Below are positions 21,409 through 32,563 of a DNA stretch of 64,000 bases, piece after piece. The position numbers and the translations under genes are program-made. The DNA comes from Escherichia phage BYEP02. The stretch lies in the sequence record OR757454.1; one strand, 5' to 3'. Each line of letters starts with the position of its first letter. Positions within the stretch are counted from its first letter, which is position 1. The notes beneath the pieces are model-generated. The model was not told the DNA's origin, did not search any database, and saw only the letters and a list, made by a program, of their open reading frames with translations.

Positions 21409-22454
21409 ATGAAAACTGTAACTATCAATAAGGGTATCTACTTCGGTAAAGAAATCTCTGGAACTTTTGAGCTCTTAGGCGAATGGTTCCCAGATAATGC
21501 TCCGGTAGATGCACAAGGAGATGGTAAAGTTTTTGTTGAAATTGACGGTAAACGTCGCGGTGTTTGGGTTTACAAATCAGACATTTCATATGATGGTGTA
21601 AAAGTTGAAGAAGTTAAAGAATCGTATGAAGATATGAAAACCCGCATTAATAAAAGATTTAATGTTATGGGAATGATGACGAATGGTATTATTAATGGAA
21701 ACATTCGTTCATTAATTATCTCTGGTGCGGCGGGTATTGGTAAAACGTATTCTTTAGATAAAGCTTTGAATAAAGCAAATGATAATGGATACATTGAATA
21801 TAAAAGCATTAACGGTAAAATCTCTGGTATTGGTCTTTATGAGCAGCTTTGGAATAATCGTGAAGAGAATTCTGTCCTTTTGATTGATGATGTGGATGTT
21901 TTCTCTGATATGGACATTCTTAATCTTCTAAAAGCCGCTCTGGACACTGGAGAGACCCGTAAAGTCTGCTGGAGCACTGCATCTTCTTACTTAGAAGAAA
22001 AAGGCATTGAGCGTGAGTTTGAATTTAAAGGAACGATTGTTTTTATCACAAACGTTGACATTGACCGCGAATTAGACCGTGGTACTAAACTTGCTCCACA
22101 CTTACAAGCATTAGTGTCCCGCTCAGTTTATTTGGATTTGGGTGTTCATACTAATGAAGAAATTATGGTCAGGGTTGAAGATGTTATTCTTTCAACTGAC
22201 ATGATGCAAAAGCGCGGTCTTTCTACACTAATGAAGAAATTATGGTCAGGGTTGAAGATGTTATTCTTTCAACCGACATGATGCAAAAGCGCGGTCTTTC
22301 TGATGAAGAAACTTATAAAGCATTATCATGGATGAAAGTCAATGTTAACCGTTTACGCAATGTTTCACTGCGTACTGCACTTTATCTTGCTGACTTTATT
22401 ATGACCGACAAAAACGGCTGGCAAGAAATCGCTGAGGTTACTCTTCTGAAATAA
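21409..22454 (+). CDS. P-loop ATPase (AAA-like), frameshifted by a 77-bp duplication
   Basis: Walker A GAAGIGKTY, Walker B LLIDDVD; 323 codons after removing 77 nt. Confidence 0.6.
22148..22301. repeat. 77-bp tandem duplication (about 22148-22224 / 22225-22301), 1-3 mismatches
   Basis: Offset 77 between repeated ATG-containing segments. Confidence 0.85.
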
Positions 22455-22555
22455 TTCATAAGAGGACTTCTATGACAAAAAGGCAGTTCAGAAATAGATT
22501 ATATGGACTGCCATCAAAAAGATGATTAGAATTAAACTGGTAAATGGAGGTAGTG

Positions 22556-22858
22556 ATGTTATACTCAAAGGCTCGTGAAATTTACGAAACTAAAATTAAA
22601 GACGCGGTTCATCAGTTCGCAACGACAATGCGTTGGACAAATGACTGGGAATACTCCAAGAATCATAAGAAGCCCTTGGTGACAAGAAAGGCTCATGTGT
22701 TAGTGTTAATAGACCGTGAGCAGATTAAAGCCCGAGAAGCCCTCCAGAATCATAAAAAGGCTGCCTTTGAATGGTTTATGGATAACACTGCTCCTGAGAC
22801 TAAGAAAGCAGTGAGTGCGTGGTTCAGTGGAAAAAATTGTGAAAGAAGTTTCTTTTAG
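22556..22858 (+). CDS. hypothetical protein (100 aa)
   Basis: ATG after GGAGG RBS. Confidence 0.45.
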   Translation: MLYSKAREIYETKIKDAVHQFATTMRWTNDWEYSKNHKKPLVTRKAHVLVLIDREQIKAREALQNHKKAAFEWFMDNTAPETKKAVSAWFSGKNCERSFF

Positions 22859-22860
22859 TT

Positions 22861-22890
22861 GTTTACAAGACCGTTCCTCTGTGGTACTAT
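22861..22890 (+). promoter_or_regulatory. T4 early-type promoter (GTTTAC, 18 nt, TACTAT)
   Basis: Consensus motifs. Confidence 0.55.
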
Positions 22891-22918
22891 ACAACTATCA
22901 ACTACGGAGGAACACAAA

Positions 22919-23233
22919 ATGAACGCTAAAGATATTTTCAACTTGGTAAATTACAACGATGGTAAATTTAAATCTGAAGCACAAAGCAAGTTCTTTAATG
23001 ACATCTCAATCGGAGGTGAAATCACTGTTGATGGAGGACAAATTTACAAATCCCGTTGGAATTGGATCGTTATTATTGATGAGATCGGTATTGTAGAAAT
23101 TTACAAAAATACGAATAAAAATCGTACATTGCACTGGTCTCGTGATACTAACGAACAGTACAAAAAGGATAAAGCATCTAAATTATCTCGTGTAACTCAA
23201 GAAGATATTGAGTTCATCAAGAAGATATTTTAA
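22919..23233 (+). CDS. hypothetical protein (104 aa)
   Basis: ATG with GGAGG RBS downstream of promoter. Confidence 0.5.
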   Translation: MNAKDIFNLVNYNDGKFKSEAQSKFFNDISIGGEITVDGGQIYKSRWNWIVIIDEIGIVEIYKNTNKNRTLHWSRDTNEQYKKDKASKLSRVTQEDIEFIKKIF

Positions 23234-23445
23234 TGTATGATAACTTAATTGCTGAAGAGCAAGCTGTTATTGATAAATTTGACGAGATTAAAGCTTCTCG
23301 TGAAATTCCTGATTTTATGAAAGAATCAGTAAATGAACGATACACTCTCATTTCAGAGCGTATTGAAACTTACAAAAAGCAAAGAGCTGAACGCCAAAAT
23401 ACTCTTCGGAAGTTTGAAGAACGGTTAAAGACGGTACTCGCATAA
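23233..23445 (+). CDS. hypothetical protein (70 aa)
   Basis: ATG overlapping upstream stop. Confidence 0.45.
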   Translation: MYDNLIAEEQAVIDKFDEIKASREIPDFMKESVNERYTLISERIETYKKQRAERQNTLRKFEERLKTVLA

Positions 23446-23497
23446 CCGCTTTATACCAAGGATGGTATAATGGTTCTAAGCCCTTTTAATTGAGATT

Positions 23498-23884
23498 ATG
23501 AAACAGTTGATAATTAAAAGATTGAATTTATTGATATGTTGTTTATGTGTAGTAGTTGCATACGGTTATTATGCTATTAATGATTATATGCATTATAAAG
23601 ATTATGATGTTACTGTAGTTAATACCATTACAGGAACACAAGGAAAAGGGTCTAGTTTATCGTTTATTGCCGTATATGAACTCAAAGACGGTTATAGATT
23701 TAGTGAATATATTTCCCCAGAGATGTATTCTTCAATAGAAAAAGGTGATAATATTACTGTAAGTTTACGTCCTTTCGACGTAAAACAGACACTGTTTGAT
23801 AATATTGTTTGGTTCTTTGGAATGGTATTAGTTCAATCTGTGTGGTGCTTATATAGTCTGTTCAATCATATTCTGTATATTTAG
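23498..23884 (+). CDS. membrane protein (128 aa)
   Basis: Hydrophobic N- and C-terminal segments. Confidence 0.5.
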   Translation: MKQLIIKRLNLLICCLCVVVAYGYYAINDYMHYKDYDVTVVNTITGTQGKGSSLSFIAVYELKDGYRFSEYISPEMYSSIEKGDNITVSLRPFDVKQTLFDNIVWFFGMVLVQSVWCLYSLFNHILYI

Positions 23885-23912
23885 TAAAATTGAAATTGAG
23901 TGAGGAAAATAT

Positions 23913-24884
23913 ATGTCAGCAGTAATTAATAATGTCAATGCAGTAATTAAATCTTTAGTTAATAAAAAAATGATGAATGAATGGACTGTATTTCGTCGTG
24001 GAGAGCCAGATAAATTTTTTCATAGATTTAACCCAACTTTGGATTTGAATGTTATCGACAAAGATGTTCATGCTGAAATTTTAGATAAGTTTAAAGTTGA
24101 TATTGGATTTGGATTAGAAAAACATCTACAGCGAACAAATGGGTCTGGAATGAGTTTATCTAATCGCATTATGAAAGCCCTTAATAAAATTGGAGCATTG
24201 TCTCGTATTAAGCGAACAAACGGGTCTGGAATGGGTTTATCTAATCGCATTATGAAAGCCCTTAATAAAATTGGAGCATTGTCTCGTATTAATGCAAGTG
24301 AAATTCTTCGCAATTATAATAAAGGCTATGATCTTTACGGTCGACTAATGCCGAAATTATCATTTGACCAAATGATCGCAGATTTGTGGGAAAATCAACG
24401 ACGATTATTAGCATTAGGCGCTCGATTAGCTAAAGGTCTAGATAAACAAATGATTTTTAAGACCAATAATACAGAAGACCTTAAATGCTTTAAATTTAGT
24501 ATTCGCGGCGATGATTATTACGTCAGAGCTCGCTCTACAGATTATGTTAATATGGGGCATCATCTCTGTTTAGCTTTTGAAGTTTTAAAAGAAGCCGGAA
24601 CATTAGAATATGTGTCTGGTGCTAAATGCCCGATTGGTTCAAGTTGTATTTTAATTTATCGCCCGGATGAATCCAGTTTAACTAAATTGCCTACAAAACC
24701 TGTACCAGTTCGCAGTAATGAAAAACATTCTGAGCAAATTGATTATTTTAATAAGCAAATTGAAGAGCTGAATATTTCTATTCAACAGTATGACGATGAA
24801 ATTTTCAGACTATCTGGATTGAGTAGTAAAGCTAAATCTGAGCGTGAAAAATTAATTAAAATTGTTGATTTACTTAAATCTTAA
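23913..24884 (+). CDS. hypothetical protein A of a 4-gene tandem set; contains an in-frame 27-aa tandem repeat; C-terminal coiled coil
   Basis: ORF intact through 81-bp repeat; C-terminus heptad-like. Confidence 0.55.
   Translation: MSAVINNVNAVIKSLVNKKMMNEWTVFRRGEPDKFFHRFNPTLDLNVIDKDVHAEILDKFKVDIGFGLEKHLQRTNGSGMSLSNRIMKALNKIGALSRIKRTNGSGMGLSNRIMKALNKIGALSRINASEILRNYNKGYDLYGRLMPKLSFDQMIADLWENQRRLLALGARLAKGLDKQMIFKTNNTEDLKCFKFSIRGDDYYVRARSTDYVNMGHHLCLAFEVLKEAGTLEYVSGAKCPIGSSCILIYRPDESSLTKLPTKPVPVRSNEKHSEQIDYFNKQIEELNISIQQYDDEIFRLSGLSSKAKSEREKLIKIVDLLKS
24131..24292. repeat. 81-bp in-frame tandem repeat (24131-24211 / 24212-24292), 3 mismatches
   Basis: Encodes RTNGSGMSLSNRIMKALNKIGALSRIK / RTNGSGMGLSNRIMKALNKIGALSRIN. 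Confidence 0.9.
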
Positions 24885-24892
24885 GGAACACC

Positions 24893-25918
24893 ATGAAAAC
24901 TCGTTCTCAAATTGAAGATATGGTTCGTAATGCCAGCTATACTCGTGATGTTATGACATTTTTGTGCCAAAATAATTTAGACCCTGATAAAGTTAATCGT
25001 GATATTCACTTTAAGTATATGAATAGCAGTGAATGGTTACGTCATTTTAGTAAAGCTGGGTATATTACACAAATGACTGCTCGTGAGCAGCTCACCGATT
25101 TCTGTAAAACTATTGATTATAAAAATCCTCTATTTGTTCAAGGCGTTGGTCAAAGTAAGGTTGATTTATCATCTGGATTTTTCAATCCAAATCATTATCG
25201 TCTTGAATGGAGATTTATTGCTCTATTCCGTAAACAATTAAAGCAAATTTTGTCTACTGCTAGTCGATTAAAAGGTTCTGATATTAACTTAAAGAACCTG
25301 AAATTTGATGGTTATACTCTTCAGATGGAAGTAAGACCGTTAAAAGAAAATAATAGAACTGCACGAATTAGCTTTAAACCTAATACAAAAAATTCTCTTT
25401 CAATTTGTGAATGCCTTAAATCACAGTTGACAGAAGCATTTAAGTATATGGATGTTGTTGCTGCTGTTCAATCTAAGATTTTACCTCGTTTTGAACGATT
25501 TAAGTTAGATACAACATCATATGAACTTGATATGATCGTTTCATTTAAATATGAATTTTTGAGAAAGGACGAAGTCCCGCAAGAGAAAAAGCAGGAAGTA
25601 CAAGATAACTTAAATTTAAATTTATCCAATTACTTATCAAACGATCCTAAATTTTGGATGTATAGTTCAGGTAATAAAGATGCATGGAAATTCAATAAAG
25701 TGAATTTTCTTCCTGTTGAAAATCCGAGTCTTAAACCTGTTGAAAAATGGCACGCGGATGCGATTGAGAAGTCTCTTAAGGCAGTAGATGATGAACTCGT
25801 TAAAGCAACTAATGAAGTGCTAGAAGCTGAAAAGGTGTTAAAACAAGCTCAGTCAAGGGTTCAAAATCTGACAAAGCAACGTTCTAAACTGAACAATGCA
25901 CTAAATGCACTGAACTAG
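24893..25918 (+). CDS. hypothetical protein B of tandem set (341 aa); C-terminal coiled coil
   Basis: Similar size and architecture to neighbours. Confidence 0.55.
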   Translation: MKTRSQIEDMVRNASYTRDVMTFLCQNNLDPDKVNRDIHFKYMNSSEWLRHFSKAGYITQMTAREQLTDFCKTIDYKNPLFVQGVGQSKVDLSSGFFNPNHYRLEWRFIALFRKQLKQILSTASRLKGSDINLKNLKFDGYTLQMEVRPLKENNRTARISFKPNTKNSLSICECLKSQLTEAFKYMDVVAAVQSKILPRFERFKLDTTSYELDMIVSFKYEFLRKDEVPQEKKQEVQDNLNLNLSNYLSNDPKFWMYSSGNKDAWKFNKVNFLPVENPSLKPVEKWHADAIEKSLKAVDDELVKATNEVLEAEKVLKQAQSRVQNLTKQRSKLNNALNALN

Positions 25919-25975
25919 TTTACTTTGCCACAAGGATGTGGTATAATGTTCTTACTTTCTACTGAGGAGATTAAT

Positions 25976-26977
25976 ATGACTCGTAACGAATATATCAAAT
26001 CATTCAATAGCGTTATTGATGATAAAGCTATACCGATGTTTGGTCAAAATATCGTTCTTTCTATTATCAATCAATGGCTCAATAGTGTTGATGCAAGTAT
26101 TGTTTCTTCTACTAAATTTATTCATGAAATTCGTAAAATTTCTAGTCGTGTAGATAAAGATGTTATCAAGAAAACCTTTAAAGAGTCTCGTCTTCTTTCA
26201 TATTTGGTTAATCGGGATATTCTTGGTAATTTTGGGAAAGAAATTAAACGAACTAAAGATGTAGTAGGATATAATTGGTTCGGTGATGTTAATTCTTATC
26301 ATCTTAATAATAAAGAAGACCCTGAGAATATTTTTACTCGTCGTTGGATTAGTAATTTCAGACTTTTCAAAGGACAGATTCTAAAATCAGCTTCTAAATT
26401 ATGTTATGGCGATTATCGTCAAATTCATCCTTTGGCTTCTGATATGATTATCGTAAAAGAATATGAACTTGATAAAAATAAAGTATCTATTTTTGTGAAT
26501 TATGGATTTTTTACACCAGAAACTAACCAAAAGAATATTAATAAATTTTTCTCAATTGCTAGCACTATAACTCGTCAATTAGAGACCGCATTACTTTGTA
26601 TGGAAACAGTAGAAAATATTCATACTTATCCTTTTAAGAATATATGCGGTTGGGAAGGATATAAAATTGTAATTAGTCTTCGTGAAGTGAAATGTGCTTA
26701 TTCACCTACTGATAAAGAAATTTACCAACAAAAATGTGATGAAATTGTGAATACTCCTAAAGAAGAAACTACCCTTGAGGAACTAATGGAATGTCTTGAC
26801 GATTCACCTGAACCGGTAGAAATTCGTCCAGAAGTTATTGCACTAGAAAAAGCTTATAAAGAAGTTCTAGAAATTTCTAATAAAGCGCAGAAAGAATATG
26901 AGAAGGCTAAAAGGATTTGGGAAGAATCTGTTAATCGCCTTGATCGTTTGGAACAAGCTTTACAGTTAATTAAGTAA
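25976..26977 (+). CDS. hypothetical protein C of tandem set (333 aa); C-terminal coiled coil
   Basis: ATG with GAGGAG RBS. Confidence 0.55.
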   Translation: MTRNEYIKSFNSVIDDKAIPMFGQNIVLSIINQWLNSVDASIVSSTKFIHEIRKISSRVDKDVIKKTFKESRLLSYLVNRDILGNFGKEIKRTKDVVGYNWFGDVNSYHLNNKEDPENIFTRRWISNFRLFKGQILKSASKLCYGDYRQIHPLASDMIIVKEYELDKNKVSIFVNYGFFTPETNQKNINKFFSIASTITRQLETALLCMETVENIHTYPFKNICGWEGYKIVISLREVKCAYSPTDKEIYQQKCDEIVNTPKEETTLEELMECLDDSPEPVEIRPEVIALEKAYKEVLEISNKAQKEYEKAKRIWEESVNRLDRLEQALQLIK

Positions 26978-27083
26978 TTTAAAGCCAAGGATGGCTCGGA
27001 GTATAAGTTAATCGTCTTGATCGTCTGGAACAAGCTTTACAGTTAATTAAGTAATTTAAAGCCAAGGATGGCTCGGAGTATAA
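26930..27083. repeat. 77-bp tandem duplication (26930-27006 / 27007-27083), 2 mismatches; gene 3' end and intergenic
   Basis: Read directly. Confidence 0.9.
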
Positions 27084-27106
27084 ATCATTAACCAAGTGAG
27101 AAGAAC

Positions 27107-28036
27107 ATGAAAACTCGTAAACATTATATTGATTATTTTGACAGTCTTATTACTAAACACCGTAATTATCAGATCGGACACAGAGCAGTAATCAATAATA
27201 TTCTTCGTGATTTCCTTCAATATGTTGGCCAGGAAAATCATATCTGTAAAGATACTCAAAACGCTTATTCTCATTCGTTGGGCAATTTGCTTCAATGGTT
27301 TAAACGTTCTCGTATGTTATCTTCTACTGTAGCTCGCGATAACATTAAAAACTTTATGAAGCCGAGCTTTATTAAATCTGAGACATCTATAACTGATTTG
27401 GTTGAATTTACTATTGTTAACGATGTTAAAAAGACCCATTTGGCTGATTGGTTATCTACCATTCCTGAAACTAAATTTGCTGATAAATTTGCTTGTCAAT
27501 TCAATGACCAAGTGAATATGCTTTTTAAGCATGCTCGCAAACTATTTACCGCGGGCGATGACCGTACAAATACAGTTCATGTTAAGGATTGGGTTATTGC
27601 TGATGAAGTAACACACAAGCCAGGTGGTTCATCAGTATTAATTAATATCCAGGTTCCTTATTATTACTCACGTAATCTCGGCACCATGAACTCTAGAGAA
27701 ATTAATAAGCACAACAAAACTATTCGTTCGTTATCTTATAAACTCCGCATGATGTTAAAAATCATGGACGTAGTAGAAATGTATGACGAAACCGAAGATA
27801 ATGGTTCAATGTTATACAGTTCACGCATTTTAATTAAACTGAAGAACCCTAATACATATAAGACAGTTGTAAAAGAGCCTAAAGTAGAAAAGATTGATAA
27901 CTTGAGCGAAGAACGTGAATACCTCAAATCTCGACTAGTTGAAGTTGAAGCTCAGATTGCCGAACACACTAAATTGTTAAAAGCTCTTAATGCAAAAGCA
28001 AATGGTTTACGTAATGCTATTGAGGTATTGAAATGA
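27107..28036 (+). CDS. hypothetical protein D of tandem set (309 aa); C-terminal coiled coil
   Basis: Begins MKTR like protein B. Confidence 0.55.
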   Translation: MKTRKHYIDYFDSLITKHRNYQIGHRAVINNILRDFLQYVGQENHICKDTQNAYSHSLGNLLQWFKRSRMLSSTVARDNIKNFMKPSFIKSETSITDLVEFTIVNDVKKTHLADWLSTIPETKFADKFACQFNDQVNMLFKHARKLFTAGDDRTNTVHVKDWVIADEVTHKPGGSSVLINIQVPYYYSRNLGTMNSREINKHNKTIRSLSYKLRMMLKIMDVVEMYDETEDNGSMLYSSRILIKLKNPNTYKTVVKEPKVEKIDNLSEEREYLKSRLVEVEAQIAEHTKLLKALNAKANGLRNAIEVLK

Positions 28037-28422
28037 AAAAGCGTCTATTAGAAGATATTGCAGCTTCAAGTAATTCCAGTCTAATTAAAATTATTATGGC
28101 TGGTGAAGAAGACGATCTGGAAATGCGCGGAAAGATTCATGGTTGTGATGATTTAGATTTTAAACCTCCAGCCTGGGATGCTATTATGGTTATGGTTAAA
28201 CGTCGCGAAAGGGCTTCTAAAAACGTTCCTAATTGTCCTGAATGCGGTACTGAACAAGTTCAATTGATTAACTGGCGTAAACCGGAACTTGAATATAAAT
28301 GCCGTCATTGCAAACATAAATTTAGTAAGCATGCTCCGGAAATGGTTAAATTACCTGACTCTACTGAGTTCTTTAAAGAACTTGCGAGTGTTCAACCAAT
28401 GCCTAATAATATTTTGGATTAA
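28033..28422 (+). CDS. zinc-ribbon protein (129 aa)
   Basis: CPECG...CRHCKH. Confidence 0.5.
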
Positions 28423-28424
28423 AA

Positions 28425-28667
28425 ATGACCAAGCGTAAAGAATATATGGAGACTGCTGAAAAGGCAGTCCGTGAATTAGCAATAGCTTATTATAATGAAC
28501 ACGGTAAATTTCCTGATAGATACAGCGTGCTTAAATCTGCTTTAACTCGTTCATATAAAAATATGCTATCAGAAGTAAGTGATATTATATACAAACATAA
28601 AGAACAAACGGGCCAAAGTCTTGATTACGACGAGACTTTTAAACAAGTACTAGGAATTAAGGAATAA
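28425..28667 (+). CDS. hypothetical protein (80 aa)
   Basis: ATG right after upstream stop. Confidence 0.5.
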
Positions 28668-29146: not shown

Positions 29147-29317
29147 ATGATTTACGATATTAGTGTATCAAGAACTCCGTCAATGGTTACTATTCCAGCC
29201 GAAGAACTAGATCGTCTTCAGAAAATTGAAGAACTTCTTTGGGAAATTGAATCTGATTTGCCATCAGGACTAGAATCCTGGATTGATTATGAAGAACTTA
29301 ATAAGCTTCGGGGTTAA
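29147..29317 (+). CDS. hypothetical acidic protein (56 aa)
   Basis: ATG 3 nt after upstream stop. Confidence 0.4.
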   Translation: MIYDISVSRTPSMVTIPAEELDRLQKIEELLWEIESDLPSGLESWIDYEELNKLRG

Positions 29318-29395
29318 AGGAAATTGAATCTGATTTGCCATCAGGACTAGAATCCTGGATTGATTATGAAGAACTTAATAAGCTTCGGGGTTAAA
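29242..29395. repeat. 77-bp tandem duplication (29242-29318 / 29319-29395), identical
   Basis: Read directly. Confidence 0.9.
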
Positions 29396-30672: not shown

Positions 30673-32563
30673 CAATTGAAAAAGAAATTGAAGGATTGAT
30701 TCATAAAACTAATAAAGACCTTTTGAACGAGAATGCTAATAAAGATTCTCGTGTTTTTCCAACTCAACGGGACCTTATGGCTGGTATTGTGTCTAAACAC
30801 ATTGCCAAAAATATGGTCCCGTCTTTTATTATGAAAGCGCATGAAAGCGGAATTATTCATTTCCATGATATTGATTATTCCCCTGCTCTTCCATTTACTA
30901 ATTGCTGTTTAGTAGATTTAAAAGGAATGCTTGAGAACGGATTTAAGCTTGGTAATGCACAGATTGAAACTCCTAAATCAATTGGCGTTGCTACTGCAAT
31001 TATGGCACAAATTACTGCACAGGTTGCTTCCCATCAATATGGCGGAACGACTTTTGCGAATGTAGATAAAGTACTTTCTCCTTATGTTAAACGCACATAT
31101 GCAAAACATATTGAGGATGCAGAAAAATGGCAAATCGCTGATGCGTTGAATTATGCTCAATCTAAAACAGAAAAAGACGTATACGATGCATTCCAAGCTT
31201 ATGAATATGAAGTAAATACTCTCTTTAGTTCAAACGGGCAAACACCTTTTGTAACAATTACATTTGGTACGGGAACTGACTGGACTGAACGAATGATTCA
31301 GAAAGCAATTCTGAAAAATCGTATTAAAGGTCTTGGTCGTGATGGGATAACTCCTATTTTCCCTAAGCTTGTTATGTTTGTTGAAGAAGGTGTTAATCTT
31401 TACAAAGACGATCCGAACTATGATATTAAGCAGCTTGCTCTAGAGTGTGCAAGCAAAAGGATGTATCCTGATATTATTTCAGCTAAGAACAATAAAGCTA
31501 TCACTGGTTCATCTATTCCTGTTTCTCCAATGGGATGCCGTAGTTTCTTGAGCGTATGGAAAGATTCGACTGGCAATGAAATTCTTGATGGACGTAATAA
31601 TCTTGGTGTTGTAACACTGAATCTTCCTCGCATCGCGTTAGATTCTTATATTGGAACACAGTTCAATGAACAGAAATTTGTTGAATTATTCAATGAACGA
31701 ATGGATTTGTGTTTTGAAGCTTTGATGTGTAGAATTAGTTCCTTAAAAGGAGTTAAAGCTACTGTTGCTCCTATTCTTTACCAAGAAGGTGCATTCGGGG
31801 TTCGTCTTAAACCTGATGACGATATAATTGAGTTATTTAAAAACGGTAGAAGTTCAGTCAAGAAGGTGCATTCGGGGTTCGTCTTAAACCTGATGACGAC
31901 ATAATTGAGTTATTTAAAAACGGTAGAAGTTCAGTGTCCTTAGGATACATTGGTATTCACGAATTGAATATTCTTGTCGGTCGTGATATTGGACAAGAAA
32001 TTTTAACTAAGATGAATGCTCATCTTAAACAGTGGACCGAAAGAACCGGTTTTGCTTTTAGCTTGTATTCTACTCCTGCTGAAAACCTTTGCTATCGCTT
32101 CTGTAAACTTGATACTGAAAAATATGGAAGCGTAAAAGATGTTACTGATAAAGGTTGGTACACTAATAGTTTCCATGTTTCAGTAGAAGAAAATATCACT
32201 CCGTTTGAAAAGATTTCTCGTGAAGCACCATATCATTTCATTGCGACAGGTGGTCACATTTCTTATGTTGAACTTCCTGATATGAAAAATAACCTAAAAG
32301 GTCTTGAGGCTGTATGGGATTATGCTGCACAACATTTAGATTATTTTGGTGTTAACATGCCAGTAGATAAATGTTTTACGTGTGGAAGCACTCATGAAAT
32401 GACTCCTACTGAAAACGGATTTGTTTGTTCTATTTGTGGAGAAACTGATCCTAAAAAGATGAACACAATAAGAAGAACATGCGGCTATCTTGGAAACCCG
32501 AACGAACGCGGATTTAATCTCGGCAAAAATAAAGAAATCATGCATAGGGTTAAACACCAATGA
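30669..32563 (+). CDS. nrdD: anaerobic ribonucleotide reductase NrdD, frameshifted by a 77-bp duplication; no intron
   Basis: 605 aa after removing 77 nt; both halves read as T4 NrdD. Confidence 0.9.
31782..31935. repeat. 77-bp tandem duplication (31782-31858 / 31859-31935), 1 mismatch, inside nrdD
   Basis: Read directly. Confidence 0.9.

What the first reader, a model, noticed from the sequence alone, without database searches (positions are those of the whole stretch)
23913..28036. Four tandem ~310-350 aa ORFs with C-terminal coiled coils
Four consecutive genes of similar size each end in a ~35-40 aa heptad-like segment (for example ...QNLTKQRSKLNNALNALN and ...[20 protein letters not shown]). 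Two begin MKTR. This looks like a diverged paralogue array with variable N-terminal domains and a shared C-terminal oligomerisation or docking helix. I cannot assign a function.
Basis: seen in the sequence. Interest (0 to 1): 0.5.

Follow-up and report, generated by a model that had tools for sequence, protein, structure and literature searches.

The report
T4 nrdC.3–nrdC.6 paralogue gene array
The four genes are the T4-phage genes nrdC.6, nrdC.5, nrdC.4 and nrdC.3, which turn out to be diverged copies of one fast-evolving protein (a globular body plus a C-terminal coiled-coil tail); nrdC.5 is already published as a blocker of the bacterial Dsr1 immune protein, so the array is probably a set of anti-immunity proteins.

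Summary
The window is a T4-like coliphage, 99.2% identical to phage slur03. The four ORFs are T4 nrdC.6, nrdC.5, nrdC.4 and nrdC.3.

All four end in a heptad-periodic helix. In the last 42 residues, 10-11 of 12 a/d positions are hydrophobic, in the same register. AlphaFold2 predicts helices of 48-59 residues there for NrdC.4 and NrdC.5.

The four proteins are homologous beyond the coil. With coil and linker removed, profile-profile scores are 41-42, against shuffled nulls of 14-15 ± 2.6. Databases split them into three Pfam and three PHROG families.

Two details in the window are artefacts. An 81-nt in-frame duplication inflates NrdC.6 from 295 to 323 aa; it is one of 33 tandem duplications (31 of 77 nt, two of 81 nt) along the window. 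NrdC.4 starts at ATG 25976 (333 aa), not TTG 25925.

On function, T4 nrdC.5 (96% identical here) was shown in 2022 to overcome Dsr1. The genes are dispensable, vary from 1 to 4 copies, and have a higher dN/dS than most neighbouring genes. The NrdC.4 model (pLDDT 83.6) has no significant match among solved structures.

The best reading is an array of oligomeric counter-defence proteins. This is shown only for NrdC.5 and inferred for the other three.

The parts
23913..24884 (+). nrdC.6 orthologue. It is 323 aa as written in the window and 295-296 aa once the artefactual 27-aa repeat is removed. Assigned to PHROG 2257 and Pfam PF26899.
   Evidence: Homology to the other three.
24130..24292 (.). 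81-nt tandem duplication (2 copies, 97% identical) inside nrdC.6, probably an assembly artefact. It adds residues ~100-126 as a copy of ~73-99.
   Evidence: TRF; absent from slur03 and T4. It is one of 33 such arrays in the window.
24738..24881 (+). NrdC.6 C-terminal heptad segment (about the last 48 aa: IDYFNKQIEEL...KIVDLLKS).
   Evidence: a/d hydrophobic at 10 of 12 positions, p<0.0005.
24893..25918 (+). nrdC.5 orthologue (341 aa). Pfam DUF7235/PF23882, 404 bits. 95.9% identical to T4 NrdC.5, the published anti-Dsr1 gene.
   Evidence: Literature: (PMC9391042).
25736..25915 (+). NrdC.5 C-terminal long helix / coiled coil (residues 282-341).
   Evidence: AF2 helix 282-340, pLDDT 70-90. (11 of 12 a/d positions).
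25919..25947 (+). Promoter-like site: (G)TTTACT, 17 nt, TG-TATAAT, directly upstream of nrdC.4.
   Evidence: This is a consensus match only. The resemblance to the T4 early-promoter consensus rests on my own knowledge.
25976..26977 (+). nrdC.4 orthologue, 333 aa from the ATG preceded by GAGGAG. PHROG 1435; homologues carry Pfam PF26897.
   Evidence: AF2 model pLDDT 83.6.
26828..26974 (+). NrdC.4 C-terminal long helix / coiled coil (residues 285-333).
   Evidence: helix 285-332. (10 of 12 a/d positions, p=0.001).
26930..27083 (.). 77-nt tandem duplication covering the nrdC.4 3' end and the spacer, probably an assembly artefact. It does not change either protein.
27107..28036 (+). nrdC.3 orthologue (309 aa), PHROG 1435. 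The slur03-type allele is only 60% identical to T4's own NrdC.3. Its stop overlaps the nrdC.2 start (28033).
27908..28033 (+). NrdC.3 C-terminal heptad segment (last 42 aa: EEREYLKSRL...RNAIEVLK).
   Evidence: 10 of 12 a/d positions, p=0.0075.

Best explanation
The four genes are nrdC.6, nrdC.5, nrdC.4 and nrdC.3 of a T4-type (Tequatrovirus) phage. They are anciently duplicated, strongly diverged paralogues of one protein with a common architecture:
- an N-terminal helical bundle;
- a small beta sheet;
- a conserved helix pair (motif ...ILKSASKL..GD);
- a beta-beta-alpha-beta-beta unit;
- a disordered, often acidic linker;
- a 45-60-residue C-terminal amphipathic helix ending in [KR]L..A[LI]..LK.

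They are non-essential accessory genes. NrdC.5 is a published counter-defence factor that lets T4 grow on E. coli carrying the NAD-depleting sirtuin Dsr1.

The most likely mechanism has three steps:
1. Each paralogue is made early in infection.
2. It oligomerises through its C-terminal coiled coil.
3. Its rapidly diverging globular domain binds and neutralises a host immune protein. For NrdC.5 the target is Dsr1, most simply by occupying or locking its TPR sensor so that the major capsid protein can no longer trigger it.

Duplication and divergence would then give the phage several specificities in one cassette.

Shown: gene identity, paralogy, architecture, heptad periodicity, variable copy number, a higher dN/dS than most neighbouring genes, and (from the literature) the anti-Dsr1 phenotype of T4 nrdC.5.

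Inferred: early timing in this phage, oligomerisation, direct binding, and any anti-defence role for NrdC.6, NrdC.4 and NrdC.3.
For: Identity. The region is 99.2% identical to slur03. Synteny and annotation match T4 NrdC.6/5/4/3.

Paralogy. With coils removed, hhalign scores are 42.3 and 40.9, against block-shuffled nulls of 15.0 ± 2.5 and 14.3 ± 2.6. A four-family MAFFT alignment is collinear and shares five motif blocks.

Structure. The NrdC.4 AF2 model has pLDDT 83.6 and pTM 0.68. The low-confidence NrdC.5 model shows the same order of elements from the long helix onward: beta-beta, alpha, beta-beta, disordered linker, long terminal helix. BFVD Foldseek gives 18 hits with E<=1e-3. All named hits are proteins of 155-374 aa from T4-like phages, including nrdC.6 of JS10.

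Coiled coil..

Function. Expressing T4 nrdC.5 alone restores plating of a deletion mutant on MG1655 carrying dsr1 from ECOR17 (PMC9391042). The window's NrdC.5 is 95.9% identical to T4's. The Dsr1 sensor is a TPR domain triggered by the major capsid protein (PMC12803255).

Accessory, arms-race signature:
- ACG-C40 has a natural deletion of nrdC.5 to nrdC.3.
- Copy number is 4 in Tequatrovirus, 3 in Mosigvirus and in a second group of T4-like viral contigs (L011-L019), and 1 in Klebsiella JD18.
- nrdC.3 alleles are 60-79% identical within otherwise >90% identical genomes.
- dN/dS is 0.17-0.27 for nrdC.3-5, against 0.01-0.06 for nrdC, nrdC.10, nrdC.8 and endoVII.

By sequence the family is very narrow: 18 of 1.84 billion representative proteins have E<=1e-3.
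Against: Only NrdC.5 has any experimental phenotype, and its mechanism is unpublished. Nothing links NrdC.6, NrdC.4 or NrdC.3 to a defence system.

dN/dS is raised but well below 1, and for nrdC.6 it is only 0.10. Relaxed constraint therefore explains the numbers as well as diversifying selection does. Two small neighbours, nrdC.7 (0.32) and nrdC.2 (0.16), are just as high.

The most conserved blocks lie in the globular core and at the very end of the coil. That could mean a shared partner rather than different targets.

No oligomer was modelled.

Confidence: 0.6

Rival explanations
1. The four proteins are subunits of one hetero-oligomeric complex. It would be held together by their similar C-terminal helices and would perform a single function (anti-defence or otherwise), rather than four independent ones.
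For: The last ten residues of the coil form the second most conserved block across all four families, and the heptad register is shared. The genes are adjacent, co-directional and tightly spaced.
Against: nrdC.5 expressed alone from a plasmid complements the anti-Dsr1 defect. However, the text read does not say which genes that mutant's deletion removed. Copy number ranges from 1 to 4 in related phages, and ACG-C40 keeps only nrdC.6. nrdC.3 alleles are swapped independently of the others.
Confidence: 0.12
2. The central alpha/beta domain is a soluble mimic of a virion neck or tail protein (tail terminator, lambda gpU-like). The proteins would act as early-expressed decoys for immune sensors that recognise structural proteins.
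Confidence: 0.1
3. The proteins are host-takeover or DNA-associated factors unrelated to immunity, for example DNA-binding proteins with a recombinase-like N-terminal helical domain. The anti-Dsr1 effect of NrdC.5 would then be indirect.
For: NrdC.3 residues 30-86 give weak matches to the N-terminal SAM-like domain of tyrosine recombinases: Pfam PF02899 E 0.079, and NCBIfam XerD-type models E 0.0013 and 0.014. The mechanism of NrdC.5 is unpublished.
Confidence: 0.1
4. The similarity is not homology. Four unrelated small genes would each have acquired a C-terminal coiled coil independently.
For: Pairwise similarity of NrdC.6 to each single family is not significant (hhalign E 0.005-0.07). Pfam and PHROGs keep three separate families.
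Against: With coil and linker removed, the profiles still match collinearly at about 10 standard deviations above shuffled nulls. Conserved motifs occur in the same order. There is a structural match between the NrdC.4 model and an nrdC.6 entry.
Confidence: 0.04

Closest known systems
Bacteriophage T4 NrdC.5 (Pfam DUF7235/PF23882), counter-defence gene against Dsr1 (Srikant et al. 2022, eLife, PMC9391042)
   Same: The second ORF is its orthologue: 95.9% identical, same position, 404-bit Pfam match. The other three ORFs are its paralogues with the same architecture.
   Different: Only nrdC.5 has a phenotype. NrdC.6, NrdC.4 and NrdC.3 share 15-26% identity with it and have no known target. The superfamily relationship is not recorded in the Pfam or PHROG assignments seen here.
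T4 NrdC.4 / NrdC.3 (PHROG 1435; Pfam PF26897) and NrdC.6 (PHROG 2257; Pfam PF26899), conserved hypothetical proteins
   Same: ORFs 3, 4 and 1 are orthologues of these genes (91-98% identity to Tequatrovirus homologues; NrdC.3 is of the slur03 allele type).
   Different: The window's NrdC.6 carries an artefactual 27-aa repeat. The window's NrdC.3 is only 60% identical to T4's own allele.
DSAD1, the phage inhibitor of DSR2 (binds the sensor domain of a defence sirtuin)
   Same: It is a functional analogy only: a phage protein that lets the phage escape a SIR2-type, NAD-depleting defence that senses a virion structural protein.
Tail terminator / tail completion proteins (lambda gpU fold)
   Different: The scores are below the level usually taken as homology, and Foldseek does not support them. 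NrdC proteins have additional helical domains and a coiled coil. T4 nrdC.5 is described as an early, non-essential gene, not as a virion part.
T4 'anti-TA island' dmd-tifA-adfA (clustered counter-defence genes)
   Same: The concept is the same: adjacent, dispensable, fast-evolving T4 accessory genes that each neutralise a host defence.
   Different: Those genes are unrelated to each other in sequence. Here the neighbours are paralogues of a single family.

Membership tests
Pfam DUF7235 (PF23882) = NrdC.5 family | Full-length match to the family HMM above the gathering score (30 bits) | tested here: met
   ORF2 scores 404.5 bits, E 4e-121, residues 1-341 over profile positions 1-307 of 307. The other three ORFs do not match this model.
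T4 NrdC.5 anti-Dsr1 factor | Orthology to T4 gene nrdC.5 (sequence and position) | tested here: met
   95.9% identity to the T4 protein. Same position between nrdC.6 and nrdC.4.
T4 NrdC.5 anti-Dsr1 factor | Restores phage growth on Dsr1-carrying E. coli | not testable with these tools
   Published for T4 nrdC.5 only (PMC9391042). Needs a plaque assay for this allele and for the paralogues.
PHROG 1435 / Pfam PF26897 (NrdC.4 and NrdC.3) | Significant match to the family profile | tested here: met
   ORF3 E 1.3e-168 and ORF4 E 2.7e-116 to phrog_1435. All 63 homologues of NrdC.4 carry precomputed PF26897. PF26897 itself produced no match for any of the four ORFs in the Pfam scan, presumably because that copy lacks it.
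PHROG 2257 / Pfam PF26899 (NrdC.6) | Significant match to the family profile | tested here: met
   ORF1 E 7.7e-158 to phrog_2257. The match falls in two stretches because of the artefactual repeat. All 105 homologues carry PF26899.
Single NrdC.3-6 superfamily (proposed here) | Profile-profile similarity of the globular parts, coil excluded, above shuffled controls | tested here: met
   NrdC.5 vs NrdC.4+3: score 42.3, E 1.3e-5 (null 15.0 ± 2.5, max 21.8). NrdC.6 vs NrdC.5+4+3: score 40.9, E 2.2e-5 (null 14.3 ± 2.6, max 19.3).
Single NrdC.3-6 superfamily (proposed here) | Similar three-dimensional fold in all four | tested here: inconclusive
   Only NrdC.4 gave a confident model. The NrdC.5 model is poor (pLDDT 52.6) but has the same order of secondary-structure elements in its C-terminal two thirds. 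The NrdC.4 model hits a BFVD nrdC.6 entry at E 3e-5 but TM only 0.38-0.44.
Coiled-coil proteins | Heptad periodicity of hydrophobic residues in a long helix | tested here: met
   10-11 of 12 a/d positions are hydrophobic in each, p<=0.0075. Predicted helices span 282-340 and 285-332. Oligomeric state not testable here.
Tail terminator (lambda gpU-like) fold | Significant structural match to solved tail terminators | tested here: inconclusive
Tyrosine recombinase N-terminal SAM-like domain (PF02899; XerD-type NCBIfam) | Score above the curated cut-off | tested here: not met
   NrdC.3 scores 13.7 bits against a cut-off of 22.3, 18 against 279, and 14.8 against 329.6.
Thioredoxin/glutaredoxin (the label many GenBank records give these genes) | Match to a thioredoxin-fold family | tested here: not met
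   No thioredoxin or glutaredoxin family appears in Pfam, NCBIfam or PHROGs for any of the four. The label appears to be carried over from the neighbouring nrdC gene.

The most novel reading that the evidence does not exclude
NrdC.3-6 would be the founding members of a Straboviridae-wide superfamily of coiled-coil-oligomerised antagonists of bacterial pattern-recognition sensors. Each paralogue would block a different sensor that detects conserved virion proteins. The family includes Dsr1 as a target, whose TPR sensor is shared with Avs7 and with other effector fusions. The conserved C-terminal helix could be the element that inserts into, or cross-links, the oligomeric sensor. One gene cassette would then set host range against several immune systems, and the three uncharacterised paralogues would each point to a defence system that T4 silently overcomes.
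Probability: 0.25. Interest if true: 0.7.

Novelty: new member of a known kind. Interest (0 to 1): 0.45.

Why it matters
T4 is the best-studied phage, yet three of these four genes have no function. The fourth has only a phenotype: it overcomes the Dsr1 sirtuin defence.

All four are copies of one fast-evolving protein with a common body-linker-coiled-coil design. That turns a list of 'hypothetical proteins' into a testable gene family. NrdC.6, NrdC.4 and NrdC.3 become prime candidates for inhibitors of other defence systems. The conserved and variable blocks indicate which parts to mutate. Structural relatives in Acinetobacter, Pectobacterium, Erwinia, Serratia, Yersinia and Klebsiella T4-like phages suggest the strategy is old and widespread.

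On the practical side, the result shows that the window carries periodic tandem duplications (31 of 77 nt, two of 81 nt). These corrupt gene models here and elsewhere in the window. It also shows that the 'thioredoxin' label on these genes in many database records is wrong.

Tried and rejected
1. Family-against-family hhalign with shallow alignments gave no significant link for NrdC.6 (E 0.008-0.12). Only broader profiles and a merged superfamily profile gave a signal.

2. AF2 of NrdC.5 with its own shallow alignment (identities 81-95%, plus one sequence at 42%) gave an unusable model, pLDDT 52.6. It was not used for fold searches.

3. Sequence search of a four-family profile against PDB returned only designed helical repeats and coiled-coil noise.

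4. Foldseek against PDB found nothing significant. The afdb50 library was not available.

5. A whole-library HMMER search with the NrdC.5+4+3 profile found only 18 proteins. None came from outside this phage gene family, so it gave no annotated distant relative.

6. NCBIfam gave only sub-threshold noise.

7. Literature searches for a named anti-Dsr1 protein or mechanism beyond Srikant 2022 found nothing.

8. The idea that the internal repeat in ORF1 is biological was rejected. It is one of 33 near-identical duplications spread along the window (31 of 77 nt, two of 81 nt) and is missing from the nearest relatives.

9. A different internal duplication in Shigella phage Sf25 gp220 is unrelated to it.

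10. The sigma-70 promoter scan of the region was not enriched over shuffles (31 sites against 29 ± 4.5), so only the one strong site upstream of nrdC.4 is reported.

11. Sequence-level tests of the Acinetobacter Acj61 neighbours were not significant (hhalign E 0.009 and 0.09). They are counted as structural relatives only.

Full report
**What the region is**

The window is a T4-like coliphage. Bases 23400-28500 are 99.2% identical to Escherichia phage slur03, and 741 phage records match, mostly Tequatrovirus. Annotated relatives and T4 itself place the four ORFs as nrdC.6, nrdC.5, nrdC.4 and nrdC.3. They lie between nrdC.7 and nrdC.2, upstream of the nrdC glutaredoxin gene.

The family assignments are:

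| Gene | Pfam | PHROG |
|---|---|---|
| nrdC.5 | DUF7235/PF23882, 404 bits | 2351 |
| nrdC.6 | PF26899 (on homologues) | 2257 |
| nrdC.4 | PF26897 (on homologues) | 1435 |
| nrdC.3 | none matched in the Pfam scan | 1435 |

Current resources therefore treat the four as three unrelated families. Many GenBank records mislabel them 'thioredoxin'. No thioredoxin family matches any of them.

**Check of the observation**

Three corrections are needed.

- *Artefactual repeat in nrdC.6.* The window contains 33 near-perfect tandem duplications, 31 of 77 nt and two of 81 nt, at intervals of a few hundred bases to a few kilobases along its whole length. All those in the 20-32 kb stretch are absent from slur03. 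They are most simply untrimmed k-mer overlaps from assembly. The one at 24130-24292 (81 nt, in frame) inserts a 27-aa copy into NrdC.6, giving 323 aa instead of 295-296. Slur03 and T4 lack it.
- *Lengthened spacer.* The duplication at 26930-27083 repeats the end of nrdC.4 and the spacer. It changes no protein.
- *Start of nrdC.4.* NrdC.4 almost certainly starts at ATG 25976 (MTRNEYI, 333 aa). GAGGAG lies 7 nt upstream, and a GTTTAC-17-TATAAT promoter-like site lies just before it. Most homologues start there.

**The C-terminal coil**

In each protein the best heptad window lies at the C-terminus. In the last 42 residues, 10-11 of 12 a/d positions are hydrophobic (p from <0.0005 to 0.0075 against composition shuffles). 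The register counted from the conserved ...LLK end is the same in all four. AlphaFold2 predicts a single helix at 282-340 in NrdC.5 and at 285-332 in NrdC.4, preceded by a low-confidence linker.

**Are the four homologous?**

- NrdC.4 and NrdC.3 are homologous by plain BLASTP (E 2e-8, 26% identity over 226 aa) and by hhalign (98%, E 4.5e-14).
- With shallow family alignments the other pairs were not significant.
- I then added more divergent members from Mosigvirus and from viral contigs of other T4-like phages (loci L005, L011-L019). NrdC.5 then matched the NrdC.4+3 profile at 92.8% probability, E 4e-7, over 250 columns.
- NrdC.6 matched the merged NrdC.5+4+3 profile with local score 39.4 (E 1e-4). 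Thirty block-shuffled controls gave 15.8 ± 2.4, maximum 22.6.

Coiled coils can create spurious similarity, so I removed linker and coil and repeated the test:

| Comparison (coil removed) | Score | E-value | Shuffled null | Null maximum |
|---|---|---|---|---|
| NrdC.5 (1-225) vs NrdC.4+3 (1-240) | 42.3 | 1.3e-5 | 15.0 ± 2.5 | 21.8 |
| NrdC.6 (1-235) vs NrdC.5+4+3 (1-240) | 40.9 | 2.2e-5 | 14.3 ± 2.6 | 19.3 |

A MAFFT alignment of all four families is collinear. Cross-family conservation is concentrated in five short blocks:

- FK.SRLLS;
- DIL..FGK;
- ILKSASKL (followed by ..GD);
- QL..AL..M[DE];
- the last ten residues, [KR]L..A[LI]..LK.

I conclude that the four are true paralogues of one protein, diverged to 15-26% identity.

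**Structure**

NrdC.5 with its own shallow alignment gave a poor model (pLDDT 52.6). NrdC.4 with the four-family alignment gave a good one (pLDDT 83.6, pTM 0.68). Its elements in order are:

- six helices, residues 3-84;
- a three-stranded sheet, 88-110;
- helices, 119-148;
- a beta-beta-alpha-beta-beta unit, 158-235;
- two short helices and a low-confidence linker, 246-286;
- the terminal helix, 285-332.

From its long helix (99-126) onward, the NrdC.5 model has the same order of elements.

Against BFVD there are 18 hits with E<=1e-3. All named hits are proteins of 155-374 aa from T4-like phages of Escherichia, Yersinia, Pectobacterium, Enterobacter, Acinetobacter, Erwinia, Serratia and Klebsiella. 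They include nrdC.6 of JS10 (E 3e-5) and two Acj61 proteins with adjacent accessions.

In Acj61 two ORFs of matching length (304 and 330 aa) sit side by side between nrdC.10 and nrdC, the same locus as in T4. Their sequence similarity to the family is not significant.

**Distribution and evolution**

By sequence the family is very narrow. A full HMMER search of 1.84 billion representative proteins with the NrdC.5+4+3 profile returned 18 proteins. The seven sequences inspected were family members or fragments of them.

Copy number varies:

| Phage or group | Family genes |
|---|---|
| Tequatrovirus | 4 |
| Mosigvirus | 3 |
| T4-like viral contigs L011-L019 (genus not determined) | 3 |
| Klebsiella phage JD18 | 1 clear member |
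| ACG-C40 | nrdC.6 plus a remnant; nrdC.5 to nrdC.3 deleted |

Chimeras exist:

- P0056 fuses NrdC.5 to NrdC.3 across a deletion.
- P0234 joins an unrelated 120-aa N-terminus to the NrdC.5 coil. It comes from a single 803-bp metagenomic contig, so it is anecdotal.

nrdC.3 occurs as allele classes of >=92%, 75-79% and 60% identity to the window's copy. T4's own allele is the 60% class, within genomes that are otherwise >90% identical over this region.

Among seven Tequatrovirus loci, dN/dS values are:

| Gene | dN/dS |
|---|---|
| nrdC.3 | 0.27 |
| nrdC.5 | 0.22 |
| nrdC.4 | 0.17 |
| nrdC.6 | 0.10 |
| nrdC, nrdC.10, nrdC.8, endoVII | 0.01-0.06 |
| nrdC.7 | 0.32 |
| nrdC.2 | 0.16 |

The values for nrdC.3-5 are raised but not above 1, and two small neighbours are equally high.

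**Function**

The literature holds one direct result. An evolved T4 clone carrying genome deletions cannot plate on ECOR17 or on MG1655 carrying ECOR17 dsr1. [quoted passage not shown] 2022, PMC9391042). The window's NrdC.5 is 95.9% identical to T4's.

A 2026 preprint reports that the Dsr1 sensor is a TPR domain shared with Avs7, and that its trigger is the phage major capsid protein (PMC12803255).

No paper I could find gives a mechanism for NrdC.5 or any function for the other three.

**Best explanation and its limits**

The array is a set of diverged paralogues of a dispensable, fast-evolving accessory protein. One member is a proven counter-defence factor.

The most economical mechanism is that each protein oligomerises through its C-terminal coiled coil and uses its globular domain to bind and silence a host immune protein. 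Duplication would supply new specificities. For NrdC.5 the obvious target site is the Dsr1 TPR sensor.

Shown: identity, paralogy, architecture, heptads, copy-number and allele variation, and (by others) the nrdC.5 phenotype.

Inferred: oligomerisation, direct binding, and any immune role for NrdC.6, NrdC.4 and NrdC.3.

The strong conservation of the extreme C-terminus and of core motifs across paralogues leaves room for a shared partner or a hetero-complex. That rival is weakened by single-gene complementation and by variable copy number.

**Novelty**

The genes are known T4 genes and one has a published role, so this is not a new kind of system. New here are:

- the demonstration that the three database families are one superfamily with a common design;
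- structural relatives at the same locus in a distant T4-like phage (Acj61);
- the resulting prediction that the three orphan paralogues are counter-defence candidates.

I rate it a new member (or members) of a known kind, of moderate interest.

Noticed in passing
window 629-62002 (33 arrays, e.g. 22150-22301, 24130-24292, 26930-27083, 29242-29395, 31782-31935): There are near-perfect two-copy tandem duplications, 31 of 77 nt and two of 81 nt, every 0.2-3.7 kb along the whole window. All those in the 20-32 kb stretch are absent from the 99%-identical phage slur03. They look like untrimmed k=77 assembly overlaps. They break or distort gene models, for example nrdC.10 (split at ~22240) and nrdD (split at ~31904/31934).
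   Followed up: partly
window 22859-23445: nrdC.8 is one 528-nt gene in slur03 and T4 but appears as two ORFs here (22859-23233 and 23233-23445). The alignment of 22221-24211 to slur03 has 19 gap positions, so there is a frameshift or indels here in addition to the duplications.
   Followed up: no
window 27107-28036; L003:6001-6927 (T4): nrdC.3 exists as sharply distinct alleles. The window/slur03 type, a 75-79% class that includes Mosigvirus (mar005P1), and the T4 type (60%) all sit in otherwise very similar genomes. The first ~60 and last ~45 residues are conserved and the middle is diverged, which suggests allelic replacement by recombination.
   Followed up: partly
L004:5805-6216 (phage ACG-C40); proteins P0056 and P0234 (L020): Natural rearrangements of the array occur. 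ACG-C40 retains only an NrdC.5 N-terminal remnant and an NrdC.3 C-terminal remnant. P0056 is an in-frame NrdC.5-NrdC.3 fusion. P0234 joins an unrelated 120-aa N-terminus to the NrdC.5 coiled coil (single 803-bp metagenomic contig).
   Followed up: partly
GenBank records matched: nrdC.3 to nrdC.6 are widely annotated as 'thioredoxin', apparently carried over from the gene name nrdC.x. None has any thioredoxin-family match.
   Followed up: yes
protein P0121 (Shigella phage Sf25 gp220, 378 aa): This NrdC.6 homologue carries an 83-aa internal duplication at a different place from the window's. It is probably an assembly artefact in that record too.
   Followed up: no
window 25919-25947: There is a strong promoter-like site (GTTTAC, 17 nt, TG-TATAAT) between nrdC.5 and nrdC.4, overlapping a small hairpin at 25926-25943. 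From memory it resembles the T4 early-promoter consensus. It would give nrdC.4 and nrdC.3 their own transcription start.
   Followed up: no
L021:5574-7594 (Acinetobacter phage Acj61); L022:6212-7186 (Klebsiella phage JD18): The locus between nrdC.10 and nrdC holds family members in distant T4-like phages. Acj61 has two adjacent ORFs (304 and 330 aa) whose lengths match two BFVD structural hits from that phage. JD18 has one ORF matched by sequence (hmmsearch E 1e-21).
   Followed up: partly
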